From an uncultured Clostridia bacterium (lineage in GTDB: Bacteria > Bacillota > Clostridia > Oscillospirales > Oscillospiraceae), in the NCBI GenBank assembly GCA_947167725.1, contig CAMVJF010000001.1, forward strand, positions 1-48,993: a stretch of DNA of 48,993 nt, given 5' to 3'. Below are positions 7,865 through 46,500 of the stretch, one piece after another. Made by a program: the position numbers and the translations under genes. Position 1 is the stretch's first letter. The number at the start of each line of letters is the position of its first letter. The notes beneath the pieces were generated by a model, which did no database searches, was not told the origin of the DNA, and saw only the letters and a program-made list of their open reading frames with translations.

Positions 7865-7884
7865 GCACCATTCACGAGGTAACA

Positions 7885-9725: not shown

Positions 9726-9729
9726 TACT

Positions 9730-10092: not shown

Positions 10093-10107
10093 GAGGGGGG
10101 CGAGCTC

Positions 10108-10446
10108 ATGAACGACGAGAAGATCCGGGAACTCATGGAGGAAAACGCCCGGCTCAAAAAAGAGAACAAGCGGCTCAGAACGCTATACAAGAGCAAGCGC
10201 GTGGAGTTTTCAAAGGTTATTTTTGCGGTAGTCGCGATCATGACCGCGGGGATCATCGTCTTTTCCTGCGCTTTGATCTGGCGAACCGGCGACACGTCCA
10301 CGCTCGCGTATCTGATCCCCGCAGTTTTCGCCGAGCTGGCGTCGGCTACCGGCTTTTATTACAACAAAGCCAAAGCCGAGAACAAGATCAAACTCATGGC
10401 TCTGACAGGAACAGAGCCGGACGCGCAGACATTTGAAACCATGTAA
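10108..10446 (+). CDS. Putative holin / XhlA-like lysis membrane protein
   Basis: N-terminal coiled coil followed by two TM segments (VIFAVVAIMTAGIIVFSCALIW; LAYLIPAVFAELASATGFYY). Immediately precedes the endolysin. Confidence 0.45.
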   Translation: MNDEKIRELMEENARLKKENKRLRTLYKSKRVEFSKVIFAVVAIMTAGIIVFSCALIWRTGDTSTLAYLIPAVFAELASATGFYYNKAKAENKIKLMALTGTEPDAQTFETM

Positions 10447-10460
10447 AGGGGGGCATAAAC

Positions 10461-12002
10461 ATGGCATTGATAGGCAAGAACAACGAGGAAAAGATCTGGA
10501 ACTTCCTCACCGGCAAGGGGCTGAGCGCTCACGGAGCTGCCGGCCTCATGGGTAATCTGTACGCGGAGAGCGCGCTCGAACCCATGAATTTGCAGAACAC
10601 CTACGAGAAAAGCCTCGGCTATACTGACGCCGGCTACACGGCGGCGGTGGACTCCGGGAAATATACCAATTTCGTGCACGACTCCGCAGGCTACGGCCTC
10701 GCACAATGGACATACTACACCCGCAAAGAGGCGCTGCTGAAATATGCGAAAGCTGCCGGCGCCTCGATCGGAGATCTGGAGACGCAGCTCGGCTTTTTAT
10801 ACAAAGAGCTCAGCAGCGGCTACCCGGCTTTACTCTCCACGCTCAGAACTGCCGCCACCGTGCGCACAGCGTCGGACGCCGTTCTGACAATCTACGAGCG
10901 CCCGGCTGATATGTCGGAGCGCGTAAAGGTACAGCGCGCGAACTTCGGGCAAAAGTACCTCGACAAATACGGCAGCGCCGTGACTCCGACGCCGGAACCA
11001 AGCACCGGGGGGAGCTGCACAGCGGCGGCTCTGCTCGCGATCGCAGCGGCAGAGATCGGGTACCATGAGAAGGCGTCGAACGCAAACCTCGACAGCAAGA
11101 CCGGGAACTCCGGCGCCGCGAACTTCACGAAATACTCCCGCGATTTGGCAGCGGCCGGCTATTACAACGGGAACAAGCAGGGCGTGGCGTGGTGTGACGT
11201 GTTCGTGGACTGGTGCTTCTACCAGCTGGCAGGCAGGAACGCAAAGAAGGCGCAGGAAATCGAGTGCCAGACCGGGCCGCTCGGCGCCGGCTGCCTCTAC
11301 TCTATGCAATACTACCAGCAGCAGGGGCGCTTCTATACATCGAACCCGCAGCCGGGCGACCAAGTTTTCTACCAGTCCGGCGGCTCTATCAGTCACACCG
11401 GCATTGTCGAGAGCGTGAACGGCTCGACCTTCACGACCATTGAAGGCAATGCAAGCGATCAAGTTATGCGCTGCAAGCGCAAAATGAACGACGGCTACAC
11501 CTACGGCTTCGGCCGCCCGAAGTACGACGCGGGGACAGACTCTGCGCCGACAGAGCCGGCACAGCCGAGCACACCGCTGAAATACAAGATCGGGGACGTC
11601 GTGAACTTCTCCGGCTCGGTGCATTATGTGAGCTCCAACGCCGCGAACGGATCCAACTGCAAGCCCGGCAAGGTGAAGATCACCGCCGTGTATGCGAGCG
11701 GCAAGCACCCGTACCACGCGATCGCAGAGGCAGGCGGCGGCTCTACGGCATACGGCTGGGTGGACACTGACAAGCTGAGCCCGATCACGGAGATCAAGAT
11801 CGGCGACGCCGTGAAGTTTAAGGGCGGCCCGCACTATGCGAGCTCGACCGCTGCGGCAGACTCCGGATCCCCGAAAGCCGGCCCCGCTACCGTGACAGCG
11901 ATCGCGAAGGGCGCAAAGCACCCGTACCACGTCGTACACACGGACAAGCAGTCCACCGTCTACGGCTGGGTGGACGCTGCCCTCGTGGAGAAAACGCAAT
12001 GA
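10461..12002 (+). CDS. Multidomain endolysin: N-terminal phage lysozyme-like domain, central CHAP domain, two C-terminal SH3-like repeats
   Basis: N-terminus GAAGLMGNLYAESALEP...YGLAQWTYYTRK (phage tail lysozyme-type). Middle NGNKQGVAWCDVFVDWC...SHTGIV...IEGNAS (CHAP Cys/His). Two C-terminal ~70-aa repeats, KIGDxVxFxG..HY.SS...YGWVD. Confidence 0.85.
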   Translation: MALIGKNNEEKIWNFLTGKGLSAHGAAGLMGNLYAESALEPMNLQNTYEKSLGYTDAGYTAAVDSGKYTNFVHDSAGYGLAQWTYYTRKEALLKYAKAAGASIGDLETQLGFLYKELSSGYPALLSTLRTAATVRTASDAVLTIYERPADMSERVKVQRANFGQKYLDKYGSAVTPTPEPSTGGSCTAAALLAIAAAEIGYHEKASNANLDSKTGNSGAANFTKYSRDLAAAGYYNGNKQGVAWCDVFVDWCFYQLAGRNAKKAQEIECQTGPLGAGCLYSMQYYQQQGRFYTSNPQPGDQVFYQSGGSISHTGIVESVNGSTFTTIEGNASDQVMRCKRKMNDGYTYGFGRPKYDAGTDSAPTEPAQPSTPLKYKIGDVVNFSGSVHYVSSNAANGSNCKPGKVKITAVYASGKHPYHAIAEAGGGSTAYGWVDTDKLSPITEIKIGDAVKFKGGPHYASSTAAADSGSPKAGPATVTAIAKGAKHPYHVVHTDKQSTVYGWVDAALVEKTQ

Positions 12003-12270: not shown

Positions 12271-13875
12271 TTATTTGCGAATTTTGCACACGACCGCGAC
12301 AACCTTCTCGAAGAAATACAAGATCGTCGCCGAGGTGTTCAATTTCGCGCAATTTGGTGGAGCTGACCGCGCGAAAGCTGAACACTCAGGATCCGCGCAG
12401 TTTGTGGCATTCTCCACGAGCTCCAGCGTCACCTTGCAATTATCGCCGGAGTAATTCAGCACGAGGGTGAGTTTGTCGTCGTACAGATAGGCGGCATTCA
12501 AGAACACACCGACAAGCAACTGCCGGTAGCTCTCGTCGTCCACGTCGCCGCCTCTGAAACGCTCCAGAAAATAAACGATCTGATCGCGCTCCAGATCCGG
12601 CTCGGCGATAAGCTGCTGAGCGATCCCCGTCTCGATCTGCGCCTTCTCAGCTTCGAGCTGCACGAGCCGGGACTTTGTGGACGGGGTAATGATCCCCGCC
12701 TCGATCGCTGCGATCATGTTCTGGATCGCCTTCTCGTTCTCACGCTGCCGGGCTTCGAGGGCGTGGAGGGCGCTCTGATCCTTCTCGCGCTTCTGGTACT
12801 CCATGCAGCGATCCGCGACCTCGTTTATAAATTCATCGGAGTGGATCAGCTTCACCAGCTCGTCGATCACCAGCTGCTCGATCCAGTCCTTCGGCGCCCT
12901 CTCTTTGTCGCATTTCCGGCGCTTCCTATTGTTACAAGTGTAATAGTGATACACGCGGCCGGTTTTACTCGTGCCGCCGTCGCCGGTCATAGGCTCGCCG
13001 CAATGGCCGCAGAACAGCTTCGACGTGAGCAGGAAGGACACGTCCCGCGCCGCTGCCGGTGAATGGTGGTGCGTGGCGAGCATACTCTGGCATTTGTCGA
13101 ACAGCTCCCGGCTCACGATCGGCGGGATCCCGTGCTCGTCTCGAATATCCTTGTATTGATAAACGCCGACGTATTTCTCATTTTTCAGAATGTGCCGTAA
13201 ACTGTTTTTATTGAACAGCCCGCCGCGGCTCGTCCGGTACCCCTCATTATTCAGCCGGGTGTAAATATCTTTTGCAGGCTCTCCGGCTGCGTATTCCTCG
13301 AAGATCCGGAGCACGATCGGAGCTGTTTCCGGATCAATCTCGAACCGCCCGTCCGGGCCCTTCCTCAGACCTAACACTTTGTAGCCGAGTGTTTTCCGCT
13401 CCAGAGCGCTGTCATAATTGCCGCGCTTTATGTTTTGGCTGAGGTTTTCGCTGTAATACTCCGCGTAGCCTTCCATGACCGACTCCAGAATAATGCCCTC
13501 CGGGCCTTCTGGGATCGCCTCTTTTGCGTAGTATACGCGGACGCCGTTCTTTTTGAGTTTATACTTGTATGTGGCTGAGTCGTACCGGTTACGGGCGAAC
13601 CGGTCAATTTTCCAGCAGATCACAGCCTTGAACACGCCGCGCTCTGAGTCCCGGAGCATTCTCTGAAAGTCCGGGCGTTTATCCGTGCGGCCGGTGAGAG
13701 CTTTGTCGGTGTATTCTCCGATAATGCGGAACCCATTCCGCGCCGCCCATGCTCTGCACTCGCGGAGCTGCCCCTCGATACTTTCTTCACGCTGCCCGCT
13801 GCTGGAGTATCTGGCATAGATCACGGCGGGGATCAGAGCGGGATCCGGAGCGGCTGCTGTTTTCTTCCTGCTCAT
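12271..13875 (-). CDS. Large serine recombinase (phage integrase)
   Basis: N-terminal resolvase catalytic domain AVIYARYSSSGQREESIEGQ...WKIDRFARN, then a recombinase domain and a zinc-ribbon CGHCGEPM...YYTCNNRKRRKC, then a coiled coil. The ATG at 13875 overlaps the upstream stop (ATGA). Confidence 0.9.
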   Translation of the reverse strand: MSRKKTAAAPDPALIPAVIYARYSSSGQREESIEGQLRECRAWAARNGFRIIGEYTDKALTGRTDKRPDFQRMLRDSERGVFKAVICWKIDRFARNRYDSATYKYKLKKNGVRVYYAKEAIPEGPEGIILESVMEGYAEYYSENLSQNIKRGNYDSALERKTLGYKVLGLRKGPDGRFEIDPETAPIVLRIFEEYAAGEPAKDIYTRLNNEGYRTSRGGLFNKNSLRHILKNEKYVGVYQYKDIRDEHGIPPIVSRELFDKCQSMLATHHHSPAAARDVSFLLTSKLFCGHCGEPMTGDGGTSKTGRVYHYYTCNNRKRRKCDKERAPKDWIEQLVIDELVKLIHSDEFINEVADRCMEYQKREKDQSALHALEARQRENEKAIQNMIAAIEAGIITPSTKSRLVQLEAEKAQIETGIAQQLIAEPDLERDQIVYFLERFRGGDVDDESYRQLLVGVFLNAAYLYDDKLTLVLNYSGDNCKVTLELVENATNCADPECSAFARSAPPNCAKLNTSATILYFFEKVVAVVCKIRK

Positions 13876-14768
13876 GGCTTCCAGTTTGTGCAACGGTTTG
13901 AGCCGTGCTTATTCAGCAGATCGGTGACTTCATCGTCTGGGAACTGGATCCGGAGCTCAGAGACGCCGGAGGGAGAAACGACCGTCAGAAACTCGGCACC
14001 GTGCGGCACAGCTATGAACTGCCCGCCCTCGTTCATGACGTTATCGTCTGTGTACTTCCGCAGCAGATAGGTGTAAACCTTCTTTTTGGCAACTTCCAAG
14101 AGCCCGGCGGGACGAATGAACGCAAAGCGAGGATAAACGAGCGGGACAACCTCGGAGGCGTGAGCAAGGCACCACTCAAACTTTGCTTTTTTGGTGCTTT
14201 TAATCTCTGCTGGGAATGAAAAGCCGAGAGCTTCCAGCTTTTCGAGCGTCATTTTCTGAGTGTGCTCGCGGAGTGCCTGCTCGTCGTTCTGGTACGTTTC
14301 GACAAGCCCGTCTGCGATCGCCTTCTGCATAATTTCGGTGTTTTCGCACGGGCAGCTTTTCCCGGTGTTATGGAGGTACATCATTTCCCGGATTTTGCTT
14401 TGCGCCTCGTCGGTGTATGTTTCAAGCAATTCAACAGCGCGAGCGAGCGCCTGCTTTCTCTCCGAAGAAGTGGGGGTGGGCGCTTTTACCGCTTTGGAGT
14501 CAGAGGAAACAGCTCCGGCAGACATGAGCCCGCACTCGATCGCGAGTCTGTAAATGTGTTTGCACGGCTGCTTCCTGCGTGAGAAGTCCACACAAGTGCA
14601 AGCTGCCAGCGTCGTATTATAAAGACCATGAGAGCCGGAGAATGTCGCCGCCCCCGCGTTTTTGTCGATAGAAACCGGAGTGTTTTCTGCTTTTATGGCC
14701 GAGCTGATCCGCTTCTGCTGCTCTGGATCGGAGTGCATTCCGTCCCATTTCTTCCACATATTCTGCAT
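13872..14768 (-). CDS. SWIM zinc-finger protein, translationally coupled to the integrase
   Basis: The start at 14768 (MQNMWKKW) follows GAAAGTGAGG. SWIM signature CTCVDFSRRKQPCKHIYRL (CxC...CxH). About 298 aa, remainder unrecognised. Confidence 0.6.
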   Translation of the reverse strand: MQNMWKKWDGMHSDPEQQKRISSAIKAENTPVSIDKNAGAATFSGSHGLYNTTLAACTCVDFSRRKQPCKHIYRLAIECGLMSAGAVSSDSKAVKAPTPTSSERKQALARAVELLETYTDEAQSKIREMMYLHNTGKSCPCENTEIMQKAIADGLVETYQNDEQALREHTQKMTLEKLEALGFSFPAEIKSTKKAKFEWCLAHASEVVPLVYPRFAFIRPAGLLEVAKKKVYTYLLRKYTDDNVMNEGGQFIAVPHGAEFLTVVSPSGVSELRIQFPDDEVTDLLNKHGSNRCTNWKP

Positions 14769-14783
14769 AACGACCTCACTTTC

Positions 14784-14813
14784 TCCCGCCGTTTGGCGGG
14801 ATTTTATTTTTTT
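14784..14813 (+). terminator. Rho-independent terminator oriented on the plus strand
   Basis: TCCCGCC-gttt-GGCGGGA stem (14784-14801) followed by TTTTATTTTTTT (14802-14813). Confidence 0.5.
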
Positions 14814-14891
14814 GAAATTTAATAATTCGACACACTTCACCCGGCTGCTTTTTTGCGATATTGCCAGAACAAACAGAAAAATCTACATAAA

Positions 14892-15351: not shown

Positions 15352-15380
15352 TTGACAAGCTACAAAAATGATGATATAAT
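15352..15380 (+). promoter_or_regulatory. Rightward early promoter
   Basis: Perfect consensus TTGACA (15352-15357), 17-nt spacer, TATAAT (15375-15380), 65 nt upstream of the Cro-like gene. Confidence 0.65.
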
Positions 15381-15445
15381 TATACATGAACCGGGGGAGC
15401 CGGGCCAAAACGAACAAGACGACAAGCCGAAAAGGAGGCGAGAAC

Positions 15446-27557: not shown

Positions 27558-28083
27558 CAGCGGCGTGGGCTTTTGGCTCGCTTTGTCGGTGATCGCTGCG
27601 GCGCTATGGGTGGCGCTGCTCGTCTCGAAAGCCGCCGGAGCTGTTCACATCAGCTGGCCGGCTGCGCTTCTGGCGCTGTTCTGGATCTCTGCCGCTGTTA
27701 TGCTCTCCGGGATCTTTGTTATCGTCGGAGGCGACAAGCTGGAGCGGCTTATGAAGCAAGCCAAAAAGCGCCGGCGCCAGCGCGAAATGATCCGCACGAT
27801 CAGCGAAACAATGAAGATCCTCACCATGAACGGTGTGGGCGGCGTTTACGGCGTCAAGAGAGAGCCCGGCGAGAGCAACCGGCACTTCCAGAAGCGGATC
27901 AACGCCGCAGCGTGCGAGCTCGACAACTCAGAGCGCCACAGACCTGCTCCGGCGACCGGCGCAAAGCTCGACCGGATCGCAGAAGCGCACGGGCTCGCTC
28001 GCGGAGCTGGAGAAACCGACGCGGAGCTGCAAGAACGGATCCGGCAGAGCGTATTCCGAAAACTGGAGGGGGCAGGCAAATGA
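27538..28083 (+). CDS. Membrane protein (2-3 TM segments) with a soluble C-terminal domain
   Basis: GTG start. TM segments GFWLALSVIAAALWVALLV and ALLALFWISAAVMLSGIFVIVGG. Confidence 0.5.
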   Translation: MKREENNSGVGFWLALSVIAAALWVALLVSKAAGAVHISWPAALLALFWISAAVMLSGIFVIVGGDKLERLMKQAKKRRRQREMIRTISETMKILTMNGVGGVYGVKREPGESNRHFQKRINAAACELDNSERHRPAPATGAKLDRIAEAHGLARGAGETDAELQERIRQSVFRKLEGAGK

Positions 28084-29417
28084 CAGACTATCAGACAGCG
28101 GCAGAGCCTCGCGCTCACGCCGACGGGGTGCCGGTATTCTTCGCCCACGACGAGATCGTGGAAGTGGAGAAGCTGATCCCGAACCCGAAGAACCCGAACA
28201 CACACCCGGACGCGCAGATCCAAGCGCTCGGCCGCATTATCCGGCAGACCGGCTGGCGGCAGCCGATCACAGTCAGCAGGCGCTCCGGCTTTATCGTGAA
28301 GGGGCACGGCAGACTCAGCGCCGCGCTGCTGGAGGGGCTGGCAGCTGCTCCGGTTGAGTATCAGAACTACACGAGCGAGGCCGAGGAGTACGCGGATCTG
28401 GTGGCAGACAACCGGATCGCGGAGCTGGCCGAAATCGACAACAAAATGCTGGCTGACATTTTCGCAGACATCGACACCGGCGAGATCCCTCTGGAGCTGA
28501 CCGGCTTCACCGAGGACGAGGTGGCGGGGCTGATCACGGCAATGAGTGAAGCGCTGCACAACGATCTCACAGAGCCAGATGAGGTGCCGGAAACACCGGA
28601 GCCGGACGACGTAATAAGCAAAAAGGGCGACCTCTGGATCCTCGGCAGACACCGCGTAGTATGCGGGGACTGCACAGACGAGAAAGCGCGGGAGCTGCTT
28701 TTGGACGGCGCAACACCGGAGATCCTGCTCACAGATCCACCGTACTGCTCCGGCGGCTTCCAAGAGTCAGGGCGCAGCTCCGGCAGTATAGGGACAAAGC
28801 GATACGGTGCAGACGGCAAAGAGATCCAAGTCACGATCGCAAACGATACGCTCAGCACGCGAGGTTATCAACAGCTTATGCGCGCGGTGCTGAAAAGTTT
28901 TGAAGGCACCGTCGTTTACGCCTTCACAGACTGGCGTATGTGGCTATATCTCTACGACGTCATGGAGGAGAGCGGCTTCGGCGTCAAAAATATGATCGTT
29001 TGGAACAAGAAAACGCCCGGCATGGGTATGGGCTGGAGAACGCAGCACGAGCTCGTCATGTTTGCGCACCGCACAAAGCCGCAATGGGACAACCACAAGG
29101 GCTACGGGAACGTGATCGAGGCCACCCGCTCCGGGAACGAGCTGCACCCGACGCAAAAGCCGGTCGAAATACTGGAGAAGCTGCTCGACAATACCGGCTG
29201 GGCTGAGGGCGTCCTCGATACCTTCGGAGGCTCCGGCACGACTCTGATCGCCGCCGAGAGCGTCGGACAGCCTGCCTACCTCATGGAAATGGAGCCCGCG
29301 TTTGTGGACGTGATCGTCAAGCGATACATAAGGACGACCGGCAGCAGCGCGATCCAGCTCGTGAGGGGGGGCGAAACCGTGCCGCGTGAGGAATACGAGG
29401 ACATTTTCAACGAATAA
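28080..29417 (+). CDS. ParB-like nuclease domain fused to an N4/N6 DNA methyltransferase
   Basis: The N-terminal ParB/Srx-like part has LIPNPKNPNTHPDAQIQAL...VKGHGRL. The C-terminal MTase part has LLTDPPY, LHPTQKP and LDTFGGSGTT. Confidence 0.85.
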   Translation: MTDYQTAAEPRAHADGVPVFFAHDEIVEVEKLIPNPKNPNTHPDAQIQALGRIIRQTGWRQPITVSRRSGFIVKGHGRLSAALLEGLAAAPVEYQNYTSEAEEYADLVADNRIAELAEIDNKMLADIFADIDTGEIPLELTGFTEDEVAGLITAMSEALHNDLTEPDEVPETPEPDDVISKKGDLWILGRHRVVCGDCTDEKARELLLDGATPEILLTDPPYCSGGFQESGRSSGSIGTKRYGADGKEIQVTIANDTLSTRGYQQLMRAVLKSFEGTVVYAFTDWRMWLYLYDVMEESGFGVKNMIVWNKKTPGMGMGWRTQHELVMFAHRTKPQWDNHKGYGNVIEATRSGNELHPTQKPVEILEKLLDNTGWAEGVLDTFGGSGTTLIAAESVGQPAYLMEMEPAFVDVIVKRYIRTTGSSAIQLVRGGETVPREEYEDIFNE

Positions 29418-29435
29418 GGCAAGGGGGTGGAGTCC

Positions 29436-29918
29436 ATGGCTCAACAGCAGCCAAAGGAAACCGACGCAATAAAGCACAAGCTGGAGAGCTTCGCGGCACT
29501 CCAGCGGAAAATCGACAATCAGATCGAGCGACTGGAGCAGCTGAAACAGACCATGGGCTCCCCGTCGTCTCCAAACCTCGGCAGCAGCGGAGGGGGCGGC
29601 TCTGACGGTGTGAGCAAGATCGAGCGGCAAGTCGAGAGGAAGGACGAGCTCGAAAGGAAGATCCGGGAGCTGATCAGCCGGGAGTCGGAGATCCGCACCG
29701 AGCTGGAGCAGCTGATCGAGCGGCTGCCAAAGCCGGACGAGCAGACCGTCCTCGAAATGCGATACCTCGACCGGCAGAACTGGTGGACAATCTGCGCCGC
29801 ACTCTACGGCGACCGGGAGGACTACCAGAGCAACGGCGAGAAGTATCTGAAAAAGGTTTTCAAAGTCCACGGCTCTGCGCTGCAATCGCTGGCCAAGATT
29901 TACAACACAATTATGTGA
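29436..29918 (+). CDS. Sigma-70 region-4-like / DUF1492-type phage late transcription regulator
   Basis: N-terminal coiled coil, then LPKPDEQTVLEMRYLDRQNWWTICAAL (HTH of sigma region-4 type). Last gene before the late-operon leader. Confidence 0.55.
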   Translation: MAQQQPKETDAIKHKLESFAALQRKIDNQIERLEQLKQTMGSPSSPNLGSSGGGGSDGVSKIERQVERKDELERKIRELISRESEIRTELEQLIERLPKPDEQTVLEMRYLDRQNWWTICAALYGDREDYQSNGEKYLKKVFKVHGSALQSLAKIYNTIM

Positions 29919-29950
29919 CCGACAATAATGTCGGCCGCAAAACGAGGCGG

Positions 29951-29980
29951 CGCCCTGCATAAATGCGGGGCGTTTTCTTT
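29951..29980 (+). terminator. Rho-independent terminator ending the early/middle operon
   Basis: CGCCCTGCA-taaa-TGCGGGGCG (9 bp including one G-U pair) followed by TTTTCTTT. Confidence 0.65.
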
Positions 29981-30006
29981 ATGCACTATGCACAAACAAA
30001 AACCGG

Positions 30007-30056
30007 GAGGGGGGGATAAAAAGGGAGTAACGGGGATAAAACGGGACAAAACGGGA
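30007..30056 (+). repeat. Five 10-bp-phased decamers ending in GGGA (TAAAAcGGGA type)
   Basis: GGGA at 30013, 30023, 30033, 30043 and 30053, exactly 10 nt apart. Four units read TAAAAAGGGA, GTAACGGGGA, TAAAACGGGA and CAAAACGGGA. The array abuts a -35 element. Confidence 0.7.
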
Positions 30057-30057
30057 G

Positions 30058-30086
30058 TTTACAAGCCCGATTTTGCGTGCTATGAT
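30058..30086 (+). promoter_or_regulatory. Candidate late promoter
   Basis: TTTACA (30058-30063), 17-nt spacer, TGcTATGAT (extended -10, TATGAT at 30081-30086). Confidence 0.5.
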
Positions 30087-30106
30087 TAAGCTGGACAACA
30101 AAACGC

Positions 30107-30140
30107 ACGACGGCCGATCAAAAGGCTGCCGGGCGTTTTT
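30107..30140 (+). terminator. Candidate terminator about 20-50 nt downstream of the late promoter
   Basis: CGACGGCC-gatcaaaa-GGCTGCCG (8 bp, one mismatch, one G-U pair) followed by GGCGTTTTTCT. Confidence 0.4.
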
Positions 30141-30457
30141 CTCCACATATACCCGTAGAAAATACGGGGAGGGGGCAAAAATTCGGAGAGCCCTCTCAAT
30201 ATGTTTTTTGTGAATAGCGTGTAAGGCGTCCAGCAAGCCAGCTGAGGCGCTTTTACTTTTAGGGTGTAAGTTTGTAGGGTGAACGCCGTCGGAGCGGCTG
30301 TGAGTGCGCGTGCGTGCTCTCAGAGGCAAAAAGGCGGGCGGCTACAAAATCGGCGCCAATTTTTCACACCCCCTATTTTCTGCATGAGGATCAAGCGGGG
30401 CAAAAGCACCCGCTCTGATCTTCGCGCATAAAGCAACAGCAAAAAGGAGCTGATCGC

Positions 30458-31129
30458 ATGGCAGGAAAAAAAGGCGGGGCATTCTCCGTAACAATGAAGG
30501 ACGGGGAAAAGCTCGCGCAGAAGATCGCAAAAATGAAAGAAGGGGGCGAAACAGCAATAAAGCGCACCGTCTCCGACTTCACATCAAGAGCGCCCGGCTG
30601 GATCTCGAAGGGGATCCGGCAGCATTATGGGGTAGACACCGCAGCGATCAAGGGAGCGGGGCCGACAGCAAAGAAGGGAGCAACCCATGTGCACGTCTCC
30701 GGCATAGCTGTGGACGCTGCCGCTCTGGAATACCGAGGCAGAACTCTGACGACGACACACTTCGGGCAATCTCCGAAGGCTGCGCCGAGCGGTAGGCAAT
30801 CAAAGAAAATAAGGGTACCCGGCCAAGCCGTGAAAACAGACGGGGGCTCTCCCGTGGCAATGATCAGCCCGCCGAAGAAGTACACCGTCAAGGCGACGAT
30901 CATCAAAGGCAACCGCGCGAGCTTTGCGCCGGGTACGTTTATTGCTTCATCAAACGGGGCGACGCTGCCATTCCAGAGAAAAGGAACAGCGCGGACTCCG
31001 GTTGACGCTGTTCGCACGCTCTCTGTTCCTCAGATGATCAGCGGCAAAGCAAAGGAAACGATCGAGCAACTGATCAGCGAGAACATAGAAAAGCGTTTTG
31101 AACATCACGTCCAGCAAGCAATGAAATGA
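30458..31129 (+). CDS. Lambda gpZ / HK97 gp10-like tail completion protein
   Basis: 223 aa with RBS AAAGGAG upstream. The C-terminal half GNRASFAPGTFIASSNGATLPFQRKGTARTPVDAVRTLSVPQMIS...IEKRFEHHVQQ is collinear with lambda gpZ (GNRRIPGAFIQQLKNGRWHVMQRV...PIDVVKIPM...). Confidence 0.5.
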   Translation: MAGKKGGAFSVTMKDGEKLAQKIAKMKEGGETAIKRTVSDFTSRAPGWISKGIRQHYGVDTAAIKGAGPTAKKGATHVHVSGIAVDAAALEYRGRTLTTTHFGQSPKAAPSGRQSKKIRVPGQAVKTDGGSPVAMISPPKKYTVKATIIKGNRASFAPGTFIASSNGATLPFQRKGTARTPVDAVRTLSVPQMISGKAKETIEQLISENIEKRFEHHVQQAMK

Positions 31130-31163
31130 TTTTGCTTTTCTCTGTTCTCTTTTCAATTCACTT

Positions 31164-31285
31164 TTGAACAGCTCCGAAACATTCAACTTTTAAGCGCTTG
31201 AAATGTTGAAAAGCTGTGCAATTCTCTTTGAAATCTCGCGAAAATCTTTTGAAATTCATTTGAATTTAATCAAAACGATTTGAAA
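31164..31285 (+). repeat. Seven copies of a TTGAA(A/T) motif in an AT-rich island (candidate cosB / terminase or bending-protein sites)
   Basis: TTGAA begins at 31164, 31199, 31207, 31229, 31250, 31260 and 31280. Intervals are roughly 35, 8, 22, 21, 10 and 20 nt, and the last four are close to multiples of a helical turn. Confidence 0.5.
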
Positions 31286-31480
31286 AACCAACGAAAACGC
31301 CGAAAAACAGGCTTTTCCAAATGTTGACGAGCTCGCGACGATCTCGCGAAATTTTGCCGGAAGGTACTGTGGGGGCTCAGAAAAGCCCTGCGGTGCTCGC
31401 GAGCCCAATTCTTTGCCAGACACGAAAAAAATTTTTTGAGGCGTTTCGTTTCGTTTGGAGGCCGGAAAGGAGGGGCGCCC

Positions 31481-32053
31481 GTGGCTGATACTAAGCAGAA
31501 TTTACAGTCCAGCGAGACGATCGCAAAGCTGTTCGGCGTCACTCCGCGGCGAGTGCAGCAGCTCGCACAGGATAACATTATACCCGCAGCAAAAAAGCGC
31601 CCGTATATGTTCGACCAGCTGCCGACGATCCAGACATATATCAGGTATCTGAGCGATAAAGTCGCCGGCAAGGAGCAGAAACCGGCAGACACCGCCAGAG
31701 CCGAGGCCGACAAAGTGCGAGCCGAGGCAGATCTGAAACAAGCGAAGGCGAAGATCGCAGAAATGCAGCTCAAAGAGCTGGAGGGCACTATGCACCGGAG
31801 CGAGGACGTGGCCGCCGTAATGGACGACCTTGTTTTTACGATCCGCGGCATGATCGTGGCGCTGCCGGGACGTCTGGCAATGGACGTATCACGGGCAAGC
31901 ACCGCCGCCGAGGCGTCGGCTATTATCCGCGCCGAGTGTAACAAAGTGCTGAACGAGCTCGCGAACTACAAGTACGATCCCGAAGAATACCAACGGCGGG
32001 TGAGGGATCGCGAAGGCTGGAGCGAGGCCTTCGCAGATGAAACAGACGAGTAA
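31481..32053 (+). CDS. Terminase small subunit (lambda Nu1-like)
   Basis: GTG at 31481 follows GGAAAGGAGGGG. N-terminal HTH ETIAKLFGVTPRRVQQLAQDNIIP, then a coiled coil. Overlaps the TerL start. Confidence 0.7.
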   Translation: MADTKQNLQSSETIAKLFGVTPRRVQQLAQDNIIPAAKKRPYMFDQLPTIQTYIRYLSDKVAGKEQKPADTARAEADKVRAEADLKQAKAKIAEMQLKELEGTMHRSEDVAAVMDDLVFTIRGMIVALPGRLAMDVSRASTAAEASAIIRAECNKVLNELANYKYDPEEYQRRVRDREGWSEAFADETDE

Positions 32054-33959
32054 AACCGCCGCCCGAAAACTTAACGCGGCCATAGGCTCAGCCGTCCGAA
32101 ATTTCAGACCACCCGAAGAACTGACGGTGGCAGAATGGGCCGACAGACACCGCCGACTGTCCCCGGAGAACTCCGCGGAGGCTGGCCCGTGGCGCACTTC
32201 GCGCACACCATACCTACGGGAGCCCATGGAGGCTTTCACAGATCCGAAAATTCGCAAAATCGTAATGGTGGCGGCGTCACAGGTGGGAAAGTCAGAGCTT
32301 GAACTGAATGTGATCGGGTACATCATCGACCAAGATCCCGGCTCTATCCTATTTGTGCAGCCAACACTTGACGACGCCCGGAAGTTTTCACGGCTTCGCG
32401 TGGCGCCTATGATAAGAGACAGCAAACCGCTGAAAGCCAAAGTCAGCGACGTGAAGGCCAAAGACTCCGGCAACACGATCCTGCAAAAGTCTTTTCCCGG
32501 CGGTATGCTGACGATCACCGGATCGAACAGCGCCTCGGCTCTGGCCTCGACGCCGGCGCGCTACATTATCGGCGACGAGCGCGACCGCTGGGCGGCAAGC
32601 GCAGGAACCGAGGGCGATCCGTGGGCGCTCGCTGAGGCAAGGCAGGCGACCTTCTACAACGCGAAGGCCGTCGAGGTATCAACGCCGACGATCAAGGGAG
32701 CGTCGAACATTGAAAGCAGCTACTACCAAGGCACACAAGAACGCTGGTGCCATCTCTGCCCGGAGTGCGGCGAGTACGGCGAGATCCTATTCGACCGAAT
32801 CCAATTCAAACACCGCACCGAGAAAATAAGAGGGAAAAAGACATACACGATAGACGGCCCGATCTCATGGATCTGCCCGCATTGCGGCGTCCTCTCTACC
32901 GAGGAAACCATGAGGCGGCAGCCGGCGAAGTGGATCCCGGAGAACCCGGAGGCATACAAAGCGGGCGTCCGCTCGTTTTGGCTTAACGCCTTCTCGTCCC
33001 CGTGGACTCCATGGGAGAAGATCGTGCTCAAATTCTTGCAAGCAAAGGACGATCCGCAGAAGCTCAAAGTCGTATTTAACACGCTACTCGGCGAGCTCTG
33101 GGAGGATCGCGGCGATCTGGCCGACGAGGACACCATGCTGGCAAGGCGTGAGGACTACGGCACAAACGCCGACGGCTCTCCCGTGGAGCTGCCGGAGGGC
33201 GTGCTGGTGCTCACCTGCGGGGTAGATACGCAGGACAACCGCCTCGAATACGAGGTAGTGGGGCACGGCTACTACGGCGAAACATGGGGCATAAAAAAGG
33301 GCTACATCATGGGGAAACCGGACGCCGACGAGGTATGGGAACAGCTCGACGACGTGATCGGCCACATTTACCATTTTCGTGACGGAAAGGGGCTCCGGAT
33401 CTCGATCACCTGCGTGGACTCCGGCGGCCATTATACACAAGAGGTTTACGCTCGCTGCCGGCAGCGCAAAGACAAGCGCGTTTTTGCAATCAAGGGCAAG
33501 GGCGGCGACGGTGTGCCGTTTGTCACACCGCCGCACAAGATCCCGATCAAAGACAATAAGCGGATCACCTGCTGGCTCTACACCCTCGGCGTAGACGCTG
33601 GCAAAGAGACGATAATGTCAAGCCTCAAAGTGCAGGAACCGGGCGCGAAATACTGCCATTTCCCTGCGGGCGACGCCTACGGCTACGACGGCTACTACTT
33701 CGCCGGGCTGCTCTCCGAAAAGCTGGAGCTCACGCAGACACGGCGCGGCAATGTCTGGCGCTGGGTGAAGATACCCGGCCACGCCAGAAACGAGGCGCTC
33801 GACTGCCGAAACTACGCGCTCGCGGGGCTCAAAATCATAGATCCAGACATGGCAGCCGTGGAGAGACGACTCAAAAACCTGCCGGAAAAAGAGCGACCGG
33901 CAAAAGCACAGCCGCAGCGCCCAAAGAAGCAGGCGCCCGATCCCTTCGACGACTGGTAA
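32037..33959 (+). CDS. Terminase large subunit (lambda GpA family)
   Basis: 640 aa. AEWADRHRRLSPENSAEAGPWRTSRTPYLREPMEAF...VMVAASQVGKSE (Walker A-like) and a zinc-ribbon CHLCPECG...CPHCG are typical of the GpA family. Confidence 0.9.
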   Translation: MKQTSKTAARKLNAAIGSAVRNFRPPEELTVAEWADRHRRLSPENSAEAGPWRTSRTPYLREPMEAFTDPKIRKIVMVAASQVGKSELELNVIGYIIDQDPGSILFVQPTLDDARKFSRLRVAPMIRDSKPLKAKVSDVKAKDSGNTILQKSFPGGMLTITGSNSASALASTPARYIIGDERDRWAASAGTEGDPWALAEARQATFYNAKAVEVSTPTIKGASNIESSYYQGTQERWCHLCPECGEYGEILFDRIQFKHRTEKIRGKKTYTIDGPISWICPHCGVLSTEETMRRQPAKWIPENPEAYKAGVRSFWLNAFSSPWTPWEKIVLKFLQAKDDPQKLKVVFNTLLGELWEDRGDLADEDTMLARREDYGTNADGSPVELPEGVLVLTCGVDTQDNRLEYEVVGHGYYGETWGIKKGYIMGKPDADEVWEQLDDVIGHIYHFRDGKGLRISITCVDSGGHYTQEVYARCRQRKDKRVFAIKGKGGDGVPFVTPPHKIPIKDNKRITCWLYTLGVDAGKETIMSSLKVQEPGAKYCHFPAGDAYGYDGYYFAGLLSEKLELTQTRRGNVWRWVKIPGHARNEALDCRNYALAGLKIIDPDMAAVERRLKNLPEKERPAKAQPQRPKKQAPDPFDDW

Positions 33960-43389: not shown

Positions 43390-43513
43390 CCGACTTTATA
43401 CTGGAGTACGCAGAAGCGGCCGAAGATCTGGCGGAAGAACACAAACGGGCGCAGCAGCGGGCAAAGGCTCCATTTATGAAGAAACACGGCAGACACTAAG
43501 GAGGTGAGCGCGC

Positions 43514-46500
43514 GTGTCGAAAACTCTTGAAACCTCGGTCGAGATCTCCGGCGTCCTCAGTCCGTCGCTGCAATCCGCGATCCAGAAGGCCGTCGAAGGC
43601 TTCAACAATATGAGCAAGGAGGCGCTGCAAGCAGCTGGAGCGGGCGAAAAGCTGGCGGCACAAATCAAGGCAGAGGAAACCGTTCTCCGCAGCCTCGAAA
43701 GAGGCTACGCCGATTATGTCGTAGCCGGGCAGGAAGGAACGCAGGAAGCCCAGCAGCTCGCACAGCAGATCCAGACGCTCAGCAAGGAGCTGGACGGGAA
43801 CAAGGGACAACTGCAAGCAGCAGAAGCAGCAGCCGAAAAGCTCGCCAGCGGTATGGGTAAGACCGAAACCGAGTCCGACAAGCTGAGAAACACCATTTCA
43901 CAGCAAGAGAGCACGCTCCAGCAACTCAAAGAGCGATACGTCGCGCTCCAACTCTCCGAAGGCGACACCACGGACGAGTCCCGCGAGCTCGCACAGCAGA
44001 TCGACAAGCTCAGCACAGAGCTGAGCGAGAACCGGCAGAGGCTCTCTGACGCAGAGCGAGCAGCCGACGAGCTCGACAACTCTCTCGAAGAAGTGGACGA
44101 CTCTGCAAAGCTGGCAGAGGAAGGCTTCACCGTATTCAAGGCAACACTCGCAAACCTCGCAGCCGACGCGATCCGCGCAGCTATCACAGGTATCAAGGAA
44201 CTGGCGCAAAACGTGGTGGAGCTCGGCAAAGAGTTTTCGAGAACCATGTCAGAGGTGGCGGCGCTCTCCGGAGCGACCGGCGCCGAGTTTGAAAAGCTGG
44301 AAGCGACCGCCCGCGAATACGGATCCACGACCGTTTTCAGCGCCTCACAATCCGCAGAGGCTCTAAAGTACATGGCACTCGCCGGCTGGGACGTGGAGCA
44401 GTCCACGAGCGCGCTCGGCGGTGTGCTCAATCTGGCGGCAGCGTCCGGCATGGATCTGGCCGCTGCGTCGGATATGGTAACCGACTATATGAGCGCCTTC
44501 TCTCTGGAGGCTGACAAGTCGGCATACTTCGCCGATCTTCTCGCATACGCGCAGGCGCACAGCAACACAACAGCCGAGCAGCTGGGTGAAGCGTACCGGA
44601 ACTGCGCCGCAAACCTTAACGCAGCAGGGCAAGACGTCGAAACCGTCACCTCTATGCTGGAGGCTATGGCAAATCAAGGCCTAAAGGGCACAAAGTCCGG
44701 CACGGCTTTGGCTGCTATTATGCGAGACATAACAAACGCAATGGACGACGGCAAGATCTCGATCGGAGAGACTTCGATCGCCGTCACCGACGCCGAGGGC
44801 AACTACCGGGATCTGACCGATATTATCCGGGACGTATCAAACGCCGTGGACGGTATGGGAACGGCAGAACGCGCGGCGGCTCTGAGTGCGACCTTCACGG
44901 CCGACTCTACAAAGGGCATGAACTTGATCCTCAATGAAGGGATCGACAATATCGCGGGATATGAGGAAGCGCTGCGAGGCTCGTCTGGAGCAGCTGAGGA
45001 AATGGCCAAGATCATGAACGACAACCTCAGCGGCGACATGGCTCAGATGAACAGCGCGTGGGAAGAATTGCAGCTGAAACTATACGACAAGGTGGAGCCC
45101 GCGCTCCGCTCCGTCGTGCAGTACATCACAAGCGGAGTGATCCCCGCCGTGGAATGGATCACAAATCACCTGCCGGAAGTCGGCGTGGTGATCTCCGGTA
45201 TCGGCGCCGCTATTGTAGCGGTGAAATGGAAATCCGTTTTGAATTTGATAACTAAAGCGAAGGGTGCGATCAAGGGCATAACAGCCGCACTCGGAGGCGT
45301 TTCCGCTCCGGCTCTGGCCGTGATCGCCGCCGTAACTGCCGTCGCCCTCGCTTTTATGAACCTCTGGAGAAATAACGAGGAATTTCGGAACAAGATCACG
45401 GCGATCTGGGACGGTATCAAGTCAAAGTTTGACGCCTTCGGGCAAGGTATCGTGGACAGATTGAACGAGCTCGGCTTCGAGTTTACGGACATAACCGAGG
45501 TGCTGAAAGCCGTGTGGGACGGCTTTTGCGAAGTGCTCGCGCCGATTTTTGAGGGGGCATTTCAAGCAATCAGCGTATGGCTGGGGGCCGCTCTCGATAT
45601 TCTGACGGGGCTTTTCGATGTATTCGCCGGCATTTTCACAGGCGACTGGGATCGAGTCTGGAGCGGCGTCAAGGAGATTTTCGGCGGATACTGGGATCTG
45701 ATAACCGGGTATTTCTCGACCGCACTCGACACGCTCAAAGGCGTGGCAGACGTTTTCCTCGGCTGGTTTGGCACGAGCTGGGACGAGCTTTGGAGCAATG
45801 CGCCCGGCCCCGTGAGCGAGGCGTGGGACACCATAACCAGCTTTTTGAGCTCGTCGTGGGAAACGATAAAGCAGGTAAGCACAGACGCGGCGGGCAAGAT
45901 CTCGGAGTTTATGACGGGAACCTTCGCGCCGGCAGCGATCGCAGCGTGGGAAAAGATCAAGGCGGTGGCCGAGGTAGTCGCCGACTTTTTCAAAGGAACC
46001 GTGCTGCCAGATATGCAACAGATCGGCCGCTCGATCGGTGAGGCTCTGAGGGCCGGCTGGGAGCTGGCCAAAGCTGCGTGGGACTTTGCAAAGCCGTATT
46101 TTGCAGCGCTTTGGAGTGCGATCAAGGCCGTGTGGGACTTTGCCGTCCCGTTCTTTGCAGCCGTCTGGGAAGGTATCAAGGGAGCATTTAAGCCTCTGGT
46201 ATCTATCCTCGGCAGTTATTTCCGCAATGCGTGGGAAGTGATCAAAGCCGTTTGGAACGTGGCCGCATCGTATTTCAAGACCATTTTCGACACGATCGCC
46301 GGGATCTTCTCGGCCGTCAAGTCGGTGCTCCGCGGGGACTTCTCCGGGGCGTGGGACGCGATCAAGGGCGTTTTCTCCAGCTGGGGCTCGTTCTTCGGCA
46401 CTCTCTGGAACTCGCTCAAATCTATTTTCGGAGCAGTCGGCAGCTTCATGAAAGACGCATTTTCCGGCGCGTGGGAGGCCGTCAAGGCAATTTGGCGACC

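What the first reader, a model, noticed from the sequence alone, without database searches (positions are those of the whole stretch)
30007..30140. Exactly 10-bp-phased GGGA decamer array abutting a promoter that is followed at once by a terminator: a candidate late-operon control region
Three elements occur in close succession:
- Five GGGA motifs at 30013, 30023, 30033, 30043 and 30053, spaced exactly 10 nt apart. Four of the units have the form TAAAAcGGGA, alternating A-tracts and G-tracts, which fits either a protein-binding array or a DNA bend.
- A candidate promoter that the array runs directly into: TTTACA, 17-nt spacer, TGcTATGAT (30058-30086).
- A hairpin with a T-run at 30107-30140. 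A transcript stopped there would be only about 50 nt long.

The promoter-then-terminator layout resembles lambda PR'-6S RNA-tR', where late expression needs antitermination.

The gene just upstream (29436-29918) is a sigma region-4-like regulator, so it is the obvious candidate to bind the array or modify RNA polymerase. Every late gene lies downstream on the same strand: gpZ-like, terminase, head, tail, DGR and lysis.
Basis: partly seen in the sequence, partly recalled or inferred. Interest (0 to 1): 0.65.

Follow-up and report, generated by a model that had tools for sequence, protein, structure and literature searches.

The report
Late-gene activator binding array and promoter
This is the control region of a gut-bacterium phage's late genes: five repeated landing sites for the phage's own late activator (a known family), a promoter, and then a conserved stop signal whose role is still open.

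Summary
GGGA starts at 30013, 30023, 30033, 30043 and 30053, exactly 10 bp apart (no such triple in 100 shuffles). It runs into TTTACA-17-TGcTATGAT (30058-30086). An A-tract, GC stem and U-tract hairpin follows at 30100-30140.

The upstream gene (29436-29918) is a DUF1492 protein. That is the LtrB branch of the Ltr/RinA/ArpU/Alt late activators of Gram-positive phages, which are known to bind direct repeats just after their own gene.

In about 25 related loci (40-95% protein identity, including cultured Faecalibacterium phage FP_Lagaffe):
- the array recurs with spacing always exactly 10;
- it keeps its phase with the -10 element;
- its sequence changes together with the protein's putative recognition helix (GGGA with YLKK/R; GGAA with YLNK; ATGTC with YLRR).

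So the array is the activator's operator. This is a new member of a known kind.

The terminator after the promoter is also conserved, in at least five unrelated sequence versions, and always lies before the first late gene. Two lineages have no other terminator after the activator gene.

Whether late transcripts leak through it or are made terminator-resistant, as with lambda Q, is unresolved. No Q-family protein is present, and no usable RNA data were found.

The parts
29436..29918 (+). ltr gene: late transcriptional activator of 160 aa, DUF1492 (LtrB branch of the Ltr/RinA/ArpU/Alt superfamily). It has two long N-terminal helices and a basic C-terminal helical DNA-binding part. The putative recognition helix is K136-YLKKVFKVHG.
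   Evidence: Pfam PF07374, E 4.6e-9, above the cut-off. PHROG 36 'transcriptional regulator', E 3e-24. AF2 model with helices 5-41, 62-95 and 102-159, pLDDT 70. pI is 6.8 overall and 8.8 for residues 96-160.
29949..29984 (+). T1: intrinsic terminator of the ltr (early/middle) transcript. It is an 11-bp stem followed by TTTTCTTTAT.
   Evidence: Terminator scan. Fold z = -3.1. Present in most relatives, but absent in L050 and phage nd4.
30003..30062 (+). Operator array: five in-phase decamers starting at 30013, 30023, 30033, 30043 and 30053 (GGGA + [TC/G]-A-rich), preceded by a G-rich degenerate unit. It spans about -81 to -32 from the predicted start. The last unit overlaps the -35 hexamer.
   Evidence: for the window. 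Spacing is exactly 10 in all GGGA-array loci. The offset to the -10 element is 17/18, 28 or 38 bp. It co-varies with the Ltr recognition helix. TP901-1 Alt binds repeats at -76 to -32 (PMC3152322).
30058..30086 (+). Late promoter: -35 TTTACA (30058-30063), 17-bp spacer, extended -10 TGcTATGAT (30078-30086). The start is predicted near 30093/30094 and has not been mapped.
   Evidence: Promoter scan, 10 of 12 matches plus TG. The TGnTAnnnT element is conserved at a fixed phase from the array in all relatives.
30087..30092 (+). Second -10-like hexamer (TAAGCT), directly abutting the first. Relatives have TACAAT, TATAAC, TAAAAT or CAAAAT after a gap of 0-1 nt. Its function is unexplained.
   Evidence: all loci. 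It is also seen in distant relatives with other arrays.
30100..30140 (+). T2: promoter-proximal intrinsic terminator. It comprises A-tract 30100-30103, an interrupted GC-rich stem 30104-30135 with an 8-nt loop, and U-tract 30136-30140.
   Evidence: Fold -19.2 kcal/mol, z = -3.9. It is 100% conserved in L001-L003 although the promoter and array diverge. A hairpin plus T-run lies 45-49 nt after the -10 element in about 20 loci with three unrelated stem sequences. In the L008-type group 93% of cells are paired against at most 61% in slid controls, and 2 pairs show double changes.
30152..30198 (+). Leader hairpin CCCGTAgaaaaTACGGG, followed by GGGGAGGGGGCAAAAATT (resembling the first array unit) and a second stem GAGGGGGC/GCCCTCTC, then a U6 run.
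   Evidence: Fold z = -3.4. The hairpin plus GGGAGGG[TC]AAATTTT element recurs in L013, L023, L027, L034 and FP_Lagaffe.
30219..30260 (+). T3-like hairpin GGCGTCCAGC/GCTGaGGCGC followed by TTTTACTTTT. It is a possible second leader terminator.
   Evidence: Fold -18.7 kcal/mol, z = -1.9. Conserved in L001-L004, L046 and L047.
30381..30428 (+). Strong leader hairpin just upstream of the ribosome-binding site (AAGGAG, 30444-30449) of the first late gene.
   Evidence: Fold -36.1 kcal/mol, z = -6.0. Compensatory G-C to A-T change in L001.
30458..31129 (+). First late gene: Neck1 / tail-completion (gpZ-like) protein. It is followed by the probable cos region, terS (31436-32053) and GpA-type terL (32037-33959).
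   Evidence: PHROG 27, E 8e-22, and PHROG 57, E 8e-37. Homologous first late gene in L008 and L023. Annotated 'neck protein Ne1' in FP_Lagaffe.

Best explanation
The region is the operator and promoter of the phage's single late operon. It is built for an Ltr-type activator.

Proposed mechanism (inferred):
1. The DUF1492 (LtrB-type) protein encoded at 29436-29918 is made from the early/middle transcript, which stops at terminator T1.
2. Several copies of the protein bind the five GGGA decamers. The decamers lie one helical turn apart, so the copies sit on one face of the DNA from about -81 to -32. Each GGGA is read through the basic C-terminal helix-turn-helix (helix KYLKKVF). The long N-terminal helices probably hold the copies together.
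3. The promoter-proximal copy abuts the -35 hexamer. From there the bound array recruits or stabilises host sigma-A RNA polymerase at the extended -10 promoter (TGcTATGAT).
4. Transcription starts near 30093. It runs through a 365-nt structured leader into Neck1, across cos, and into the terminase, head, tail and lysis genes.
5. An intrinsic terminator (T2, 30100-30140) sits about 10-47 nt into the transcript. My most likely reading is that T2 is a constitutive, partly efficient gate. It blocks read-through from the early operon and damps basal firing of a promoter that looks strong by consensus. Late genes then appear only when Ltr drives very frequent initiation.

What is shown: the sequence features, their conservation, their phasing, and the covariation between protein and array.
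What is inferred: binding, activation, the start site, and how T2 behaves.
For: Family:
- PF07374 above the cut-off and PHROG 36.
- Gene position matches the Ltr paradigm: end of the early module, after the methyltransferase, immediately before the packaging and morphogenesis operon.

Literature:
- Ltr proteins, including an LtrB tested in a reporter, bind direct repeats just distal to their gene.
- The repeats are necessary and sufficient for specificity, and the C-terminus sets that specificity.
- Ltr is the only phage protein needed (PMC3753634).
- TP901-1 Alt binds four repeats at -76 to -32 (PMC3152322; PMC13123087).
- The window array spans -81 to -32 for a start at 30094.

Statistics: 0 expected phased triples, and only one array in the window.

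Conservation:
- Arrays of 3-6 units occur in about 25 loci from Ruminococcus, Lachnospiraceae, Oscillospiraceae and FP_Lagaffe, at 54-95% protein identity.
- Spacing is exactly 10 in every case.
- The last GGGA lies 17/18, 28 or 38 bp from the -10 hexamer.

Covariation:
- GGGA arrays go with YLK[KR].
- Both GGAA arrays (L002, L046) go with YLNK.
- L026 has an ATGTC array with SYLRR/RIHG, whereas its sibling L025 has GGGA with KYLKR.

T2:
- Conserved hairpin plus U-tract in three unrelated sequence types at 45-49 nt from the -10 element.
- Further versions lie at about 90-115 nt in L016, L038 and nd4.
- T1 is absent in L050 and nd4, so there T2 is the only terminator between ltr and the late genes.
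Against: - No binding, start-site or termination data exist. Public RNA runs held only sparse fragments of the Neck1 gene, or looked like DNA.
- The whole protein is not basic (pI 6.8), unlike the 'small basic' description of Ltr proteins.
- Similarity to sigma region 4 could not be confirmed by fold.
- A passive terminator lowers the on and off states equally. It therefore explains poorly why it is so strictly conserved downstream of the only late promoter.
- Several relatives have consensus-grade promoters that should not need an activator for recruitment. L050 has TTGACA-17-TGcTATAAT.
- The window leader carries further terminator-like hairpins.

The last three points favour a regulated terminator.
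Confidence: 0.7

Rival explanations
1. Promoter-loaded antitermination, working like lambda Q at PR'/tR'. The promoter fires on its own or with help from Ltr. Polymerases are stopped at T2, giving an RNA of about 45 nt, unless Ltr bound at the array is handed to the polymerase or otherwise makes it terminator-resistant. Only transcripts started at this promoter would then cross T2, the other leader hairpins and the 30-kb operon.
For: - T2 lies between the only late promoter and all late genes in every lineage examined, in at least five unrelated sequences.
- It is 100% conserved in L002/L003, where the array and the -35 hexamer have diverged.
- L050 and nd4 lack T1. T2 must stop early read-through there, yet late transcripts must pass it.
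- Near-consensus promoters occur in the window, L004, L047 and L050.
- Only about 10 nt lie upstream of the stem, so no alternative RNA fold could act as a cis switch.
- The window leader has extra terminator-like hairpins.
- The published Ltr reporter designs (Pcad-ltr-intergenic-terS'-blaZ) do not by themselves separate activation from antitermination.
- A -10-like second hexamer is conserved.
Against: - No Q-family domain is present.
- The second hexamer sits at about -6 to -1, not in the transcribed region where sigma-dependent pause elements lie.
- Relatives such as L008, L013 and FP_Lagaffe have weak -10 hexamers and no -35 hexamer, which is typical of plain activator-dependent promoters.
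- T2 has only 4-5 U and, in the window, two stem mismatches, so it may simply be leaky.
- Three literature searches found no report of antitermination by Ltr, RinA or ArpU proteins.
Confidence: 0.3
2. The hairpin is mainly a 5'-terminal stabiliser of the long late mRNA, giving protection from 5'-end-dependent decay in Firmicutes. It is not a terminator. The U-run is kept because it pairs with the upstream A-run.
For: - The hairpin starts 4-11 nt from either candidate start site.
- A-tract/U-tract pairing is predicted in all versions.
- In L008-type loci the better -10 hexamer is the second one, which would put the start at the base of the stem.
Against: - A GC stem followed directly by 4-6 U acts as an intrinsic terminator whatever else it does.
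- In L016, L038 and nd4 the equivalent hairpin plus T-run lies 90-115 nt downstream, not at the 5' end.
- In L050 and nd4 it is the only terminator after ltr.
Confidence: 0.12
3. The array is only an intrinsically bent, UP-element-like stretch of phased A-tracts. It would stimulate the promoter through DNA shape or the polymerase alpha subunits, with no sequence-specific phage protein.
For: A4-5 tracts are repeated every 10 bp from -80 to -40, which is the position of UP elements and of bend-activated promoters.
Against: - The invariant part is GGGA, not the A-run.
- L026 keeps the architecture with the non-A-rich units ATGTCAGTAC and ATGTCAGCGC.
- The array motif changes together with residues of the Ltr C-terminal helix.
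- Repeat arrays are experimentally required for specific Ltr binding in related families.
Confidence: 0.05

Closest known systems
Ltr superfamily late activators (RinA, ArpU, LtrA, LtrB/DUF1492, LtrC) and their repeat operators upstream of terS (Quiles-Puchalt et al. 2013, PMC3753634; Ferrer et al. 2011, PMC3152322; Phi13 Ltr 2026, PMC13123087)
   Same: - The regulator gene is the last gene of the early module.
- Direct repeats lie just downstream of it.
- A single promoter serves the whole packaging, morphogenesis and lysis operon.
- The C-terminal part sets the specificity for the repeats.
- The protein carries the DUF1492 domain that defines LtrB.
   Different: - The hosts are gut Clostridia (Ruminococcus, Faecalibacterium, Lachnospiraceae), not bacilli or cocci.
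- The protein has about 60 extra N-terminal residues (a long helix plus an invariant MGSPSSPN loop) and is not basic overall.
- The repeats are strict 10-bp decamers abutting or overlapping the -35 hexamer. Phi13 has 18-bp repeats, and the RinA sites lie more than 155 bp from the mapped start.
- The first late gene is Neck1, not terS.
- A conserved leader terminator lies downstream of the promoter.
Alt activator and P-late of Lactococcus phage TP901-1 (DUF722)
   Same: - There are four or five imperfect direct repeats with roughly one-turn spacing, occupying -76 to -32. The window array occupies -81 to -32.
- The repeats have a similar G-rich plus A-tract look: GGGATAAAAACGACACGAAAAAGGCACGAAATT directly after alt.
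- There is no good -35 hexamer.
- The leader is long, with a terminator-like hairpin just before the first late gene's ribosome-binding site.
- Some relatives of the window protein carry weak DUF722 hits.
   Different: - It belongs to a different Pfam family (DUF722, not DUF1492).
- The TP901-1 leader carries two tRNA genes, and its hairpin lies about 450 nt from the start rather than about 10 nt.
Lambda PR' - 6S RNA - tR' with antiterminator Q
   Same: - A promoter that looks strong is followed at once by an intrinsic terminator, ahead of a single very long late operon.
- The DNA site for the regulator is at the promoter.
- The late transcript crosses cos into Nu1/GpA-type terminase genes.
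   Different: - No Q-family protein is present.
- The regulator sites lie upstream of the -35 hexamer as a five-unit array, not as a QBE.
- No -10-like pause element is found in the early transcribed region.
- The terminated RNA would be about 45 nt rather than 194 nt.
- Antitermination has not been tested.
Faecalibacterium phage FP_Lagaffe (MG711461), a cultured relative
   Same: - The gene order is the same: methyltransferase, Ltr (63% identity, annotated 'RNA polymerase sigma factor'), Neck1, then terS and GpA terL.
- The control region is the same: T1, 4 x GGGA decamers, GTGCTACTCT-G-TATAAC, then the hairpin GCCGTCCGG...CCGGACGGTTTTT.
   Different: - It has four units and no -35 hexamer.
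- The terminator stem has a different sequence.
- The leader is short.
- The window phage has a tail sheath, so it is myovirus-like.

Membership tests
Ltr-type late activator system (LtrB/DUF1492 branch) | The regulator belongs to one of the Ltr protein families (here the DUF1492 domain). | tested here: met
   PF07374, E 4.6e-9, 36.8 bits against a cut-off of 21.5. PHROG 36 transcriptional regulator.
Ltr-type late activator system (LtrB/DUF1492 branch) | [quoted passage not shown] | tested here: met
   The order is methyltransferase 28080-29417, ltr 29436-29918, then Neck1, terS and terL. Relatives and FP_Lagaffe have the same order.
Ltr-type late activator system (LtrB/DUF1492 branch) | Direct repeats lie just distal to the ltr gene and upstream of the late promoter. 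| tested here: met
   Five decamers at 30013-30062, which is 95 bp after the stop codon and abutting the -35 hexamer. Conserved in relatives.
Ltr-type late activator system (LtrB/DUF1492 branch) | [quoted passage not shown] | tested here: met
   Covariation by comparison only: K139 (YLKK) with GGGA, N (YLNK) with GGAA in two loci, and SYLRR/RIHG with ATGTC.
Ltr-type late activator system (LtrB/DUF1492 branch) | The protein is small and basic. | tested here: inconclusive
   It is 160 aa with pI 6.8 overall. The C-terminal 65 aa have pI 8.8 and the N-terminal extension is acidic.
Ltr-type late activator system (LtrB/DUF1492 branch) | The protein binds the repeats and is required and sufficient for late-promoter activity. 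| not testable with these tools
   This needs gel shift, footprinting and reporter assays. It has been shown for other family members.
Lambda Q-type late antitermination module | A Q-family antiterminator protein is present. | tested here: not met
   The regulator has only a DUF1492 hit. The neighbouring proteins scanned, three of them upstream early-module proteins, gave no antiterminator hit; the rest of the window's early region was not scanned.
Lambda Q-type late antitermination module | A sigma-dependent pause element (-10-like) lies in the initial transcribed region. | tested here: not met
   A conserved second -10-like hexamer exists, but it directly abuts the -10 element (gap of 0-1 nt). 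That places it at about -6 to -1 or +1.
Lambda Q-type late antitermination module | A promoter is followed by an intrinsic terminator upstream of all late genes. | tested here: met
   Conserved in relatives down to 40% identity.
Lambda Q-type late antitermination module | Read-through depends on the factor. | not testable with these tools
   RNA runs were uninformative.
Intrinsic (factor-independent) terminator | A GC-rich stem-loop is followed immediately by a U-run, with an optional upstream A-run. | tested here: met
   Stem 30104-30135 (10 pairs, 9 of them G-C and one G-U, with two mismatches), UUUUU at 30136-30140 and AAAA at 30100-30103. The energy is -19.2 kcal/mol with z = -3.9. It was missed by the strict pattern scan.
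Sigma-70 region 4 fold | Sequence or fold match to a sigma region 4 helix-turn-helix. | tested here: inconclusive
   Sigma70_r4_2 E = 0.19 and sigma70-ECF E = 0.0025, both below their cut-offs. Foldseek against the PDB gave no significant hit for the full-length or the C-terminal model.

The most novel reading that the evidence does not exclude
The DUF1492/Ltr protein would be both activator and antiterminator. Loaded from its phased array at the promoter, it would make polymerase resistant to the conserved terminator 10-47 nt downstream and to later terminators in the 30-kb operon. That would be a Q-like mechanism that evolved independently in Gram-positive phages. It would also call for a second look at how the whole Ltr/RinA/ArpU/Alt superfamily works.
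Probability: 0.3. Interest if true: 0.7.

Novelty: new member of a known kind. Interest (0 to 1): 0.35.

Why it matters
It extends the Ltr/Alt late-switch paradigm, worked out in staphylococcal, enterococcal and lactococcal phages, to temperate phages of dominant gut Clostridia such as Ruminococcus, Faecalibacterium and Lachnospiraceae. In those phages these genes are currently annotated as 'sigma factor' or 'hypothetical'.

It gives an unusually clean operator grammar:
- 10-bp decamers in fixed phase with the -10 element;
- a one-residue, one-base specificity pair (K139/GGGA against N/GGAA) that can be tested directly.

This is useful for predicting late promoters and for building orthogonal switches.

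The terminator, conserved immediately after the only late promoter, raises a testable question: do Ltr proteins only activate, or do they also antiterminate? A cultured system with the same architecture exists (FP_Lagaffe on F. prausnitzii).

Tried and rejected
- Rfam, E-value mode, on 29800-31500: only sub-threshold chance hits.
- RNA evidence, 4 run searches and 3 read layouts:
  - Ruminant metatranscriptome contigs cover only 30773-31139 at low depth.
  - The mouse-gut 'RNA-Seq' runs have flat depth and contigs spanning T1, promoter and T2, so they look like DNA.
  - The runs matching L013 are DNA.
- Fold and structure searches:
  - Foldseek on the full-length model is dominated by coiled-coil look-alikes such as STAT and designed bundles.
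  - The C-terminal model gave no hit.
  - A PDB sequence search found nothing.
- RNAalifold on a mixed alignment of all hairpin types mis-registered the arms and gave a meaningless consensus. I replaced it with per-sequence folds and a hand-specified structure on the L008-type subgroup.
- A search for other GGGA arrays or tandem -10 modules in the window found none. The phased GGGA triple at 17691 is G-rich coding sequence with no A-tracts and no promoter, so I treat it as chance.
- Internal terminators in the late operon are not above the shuffle expectation. They give no argument for processive antitermination.
- I considered that the real -10 element is the second hexamer. I rejected this as the general case, because only the first hexamer keeps a constant phase with the array.

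Full report
**1. The observation**

The sequence read shows GGGA at 30013, 30023, 30033, 30043 and 30053. The units are GGGATAAAAA, GGGAGTAACG, GGGATAAAAC, GGGACAAAAC and GGGAGTTTAC. A further GGGA at 30005 is out of phase. Three overlapping matches to GGGA-N6-GGGA-N6-GGGA lie here, against 0.00 expected in 100 dinucleotide-preserving shuffles. Exact GGGAYAAAA occurs nowhere else in the window.

The promoter scan independently reports TTTACA-17-TATGAT with an upstream TG at 30058-30086. It scores 10 of 12 and is the best + strand site in 29400-31500.

The hairpin is not reported by the strict terminator pattern, because its stem has two mismatches. It still folds as A-tract 30100-30103, stem 30104-30135 and U5 at 30136-30140. 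The energy is -19.2 kcal/mol, z = -3.9, and 0 of 200 shuffles fold as well.

**2. The neighbourhood**

- The upstream gene (29436-29918) hits Pfam DUF1492 above the gathering score and PHROG 36 'transcriptional regulator'.
- It has its own terminator, T1, at 29949-29974.
- Downstream genes are a Neck1/tail-completion gene (30458-31129), terS and a GpA-type terL. Further on come the tail sheath and a + strand ORF of at least 1828 aa that runs off the window end. Baseplate and endolysin genes lie at the window start.
- The region therefore sits exactly at the early/late boundary of a temperate, lambda-like-packaging phage.

**3. What is known about such proteins**

- DUF1492 is the LtrB family of the Ltr superfamily (RinA, ArpU, LtrA, LtrB, LtrC).
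[quoted passage not shown] - Ltr is the only phage protein needed to turn on the late operon. An LtrB was tested in a reporter (PMC3753634).
- TP901-1 Alt binds four imperfect repeats at -76 to -32 (PMC3152322; PMC13123087).
- With a start at 30094, the window array spans -81 to -32.
- The TP901-1 sequence after alt reads GGGTCAAATTGGGATAAAAACGACACGAAAAAGGCACGAAATT, a similar G-plus-A-tract array.

**4. Comparative evidence**

I collected loci from several sources:
- viral contigs and genome contigs;
- contigs encoding intermediate homologues;
- GenBank phages FP_Lagaffe and nd4.

(a) Every GGGA-type locus has 3-6 units with spacing exactly 10, never 9 or 11.

(b) The last GGGA lies 17/18, 28 or 38 bp upstream of a TGnTAnnnT extended -10 element. 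The array is therefore in constant helical phase with the promoter. Some loci have a TTGAAA or TTGACA -35 hexamer inside the last unit. Others, including L013 and FP_Lagaffe, have no -35 hexamer at all.

(c) The motif co-varies with the putative recognition helix:

| Array motif | Loci | Recognition helix |
|---|---|---|
| GGGA | all GGGA-array loci | YLK[KR] |
| GGAA | L002 and L046 | YLNK |
| ATGTC | L026 | SYLRR/RIHG |

- L002 is otherwise 94% identical to the window protein.
- L026's sibling L025 keeps GGGA with KYLKR.
- The ATGTC units are not A-rich, so A-tract bending is not the core feature.

I conclude that the array is the operator of the DUF1492 activator. The basis is comparative inference plus family knowledge.

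**5. The terminator after the promoter**

- In about 20 non-redundant loci a hairpin plus T-run ends 45-49 nt after the -10 element. The energies are -12 to -21 kcal/mol for the stems alone.
- There are three unrelated stem sequences: window type CGCACGACGGCC/GGCTGCCGGGCG, L050 type, and L008/Lagaffe type GCCGTCTGGAG/CTCTGGGCGGC.
- All of them have an upstream A-run and z-scores between -3 and -6.5.
- Within the L008 type, 93% of cells pair against at most 61% in slid controls, with double changes at two pairs.
- FP_Lagaffe turns a U-G pair into U-A.
- More distant relatives place the terminator 90-115 nt downstream, but always before the first late gene (L016, L038; nd4).
- In L002/L003 the hairpin is 100% identical to the window, although the array and the -35 hexamer have changed.
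- L050 and nd4 have no T1. There, this hairpin is the only terminator between ltr and the late genes.
- The window leader also has a second terminator-like hairpin at 30219-30260 and two further strong stems. The whole leader has z = -5.4.

**6. Mechanism**

The part I consider well supported is that several Ltr copies bind one face of the DNA from about -81 to -32 and activate a sigma-A extended -10 promoter. This is a class-II-like geometry, with the last unit at -41.

The role of T2 is open. Only about 10 nt precede the stem, so no cis RNA switch is possible. Two readings remain:
- T2 is a constitutive partial gate, acting as an insulator against early read-through and a damper of a consensus-grade promoter.
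- Polymerase that starts here is made terminator-resistant.

Points for the second reading:
- the strict conservation of T2;
- lineages that lack T1;
- perfect-consensus promoters such as the one in L050;
- extra leader terminators in the window.

Points against it:
- there is no Q-family protein;
- the conserved second -10-like hexamer abuts the -10 element instead of lying in the transcribed region;
- relatives have weak promoters;
- the U-tracts are short;
- I found no literature report of antitermination by these proteins.

I put the passive gate at about 0.45, antitermination at about 0.3, and a mainly stabilising 5' hairpin at about 0.12.

**7. Tests that gave nothing**

- Rfam.
- RNA runs.
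- PDB sequence and fold searches.
- Similarity to sigma region 4 has only sub-threshold hits.
- The AF2 model has pLDDT 70. It shows two long N-terminal helices with a disordered loop that holds the invariant MGSPSSPN, plus a short-helix C-terminal domain.

**8. Verdict**

This is a genuine, conserved late-operon control region. The array and promoter are a new member of the known Ltr/Alt kind, now documented for gut Clostridia phages with a clear grammar and a testable specificity code. The conserved promoter-proximal terminator and the tandem -10 hexamers are the parts not described for this family. They deserve an experiment in FP_Lagaffe.

Noticed in passing
window 30081-30092; also L004, L008, L013, L016, L023, L025, L026, L037, L044, L050, L055: A second -10-like hexamer (TAAGCT, TACAAT, TATAAC, TAAAAT or TAAACT) follows the first -10 hexamer after 0-1 nt in every relative. 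This includes distant relatives with different repeat arrays. In loci with a weak first hexamer the second is near consensus, and the reverse also holds. The function is unknown.
   Followed up: partly
window 30152-30185; L013, L023, L027, L034; L053 2718-2755: Right after the terminator, a hairpin with an A-rich loop (CCCGTAgaaaaTACGGG) is followed by GGGGAGGGGGCAAAAATT. This resembles the first unit of the array. It is conserved in several lineages just upstream of the first late gene's ribosome-binding site.
   Followed up: partly
window 30381-30428: A very stable leader hairpin (-36 kcal/mol, z = -6) lies about 15 nt before the ribosome-binding site of the first late gene. L001 shows a compensatory change. 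It may be a processing or stability element.
   Followed up: partly
window about 31130-31435; L013 4195-4205: This is probably the cos site. The FP_Lagaffe record ends after the Neck1 gene and starts just before terS. Contigs from two runs break, with an 11-nt overlap, between Neck1 and terS in L013. The late transcript would therefore have to cross cos, as in lambda.
   Followed up: partly
window 15352-15408: A perfect consensus promoter, TTGACA-17-TGnTATAAT, lies on the + strand at 15352-15380. A divergent promoter on the - strand overlaps it at 15408-15379. Leftward genes at 12271-14840 lie next to it. This is probably the lysis/lysogeny switch.
   Followed up: no
window 43508-48993 and 1-12002: A + strand ORF of at least 1828 aa, tape-measure-like, runs off the window end. 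The listed minus-strand ORFs at 43496-48972 have no PHROG hits and look like antisense artefacts. Baseplate and endolysin genes lie at the window start, so the window appears to be a circular permutation of the phage genome.
   Followed up: partly
L052 (TP901-1) 2135-2209, 2289-2376 and 2519-2539: The late leader of TP901-1, between P-late and terS, holds two tRNA genes (Lys-ttt and Ala-cgc) that are not annotated in the record. It also has a terminator-like hairpin directly before the terS ribosome-binding site.
   Followed up: partly
L047/L048 about 3400-3640: In these relatives (84% identical Ltr) an AT-rich insertion of about 300 nt lies in the late leader, between the conserved hairpins and the first late gene.
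   Followed up: no
L044 about 2860-3120: A distant relative (24% identity) has two tandem copies of the array-promoter module (GTCAC/ATGTCA units, TTGAAT-18-TATGAT-G-TAGATG). The first copy is followed by a hairpin plus T-run and the second is not.
   Followed up: no
L010 2960-3100: In this locus the sequence after ltr is replaced by a consensus promoter (TTGACA...TATAAT) and an inserted gene instead of the GGGA array.
   Followed up: no
window 28080-29417: A methyltransferase with N6_N4_Mtase and a weak, sub-threshold ParB_N-like match directly precedes ltr. It is conserved in that position in nearly all relatives, including FP_Lagaffe and nd4.
   Followed up: no
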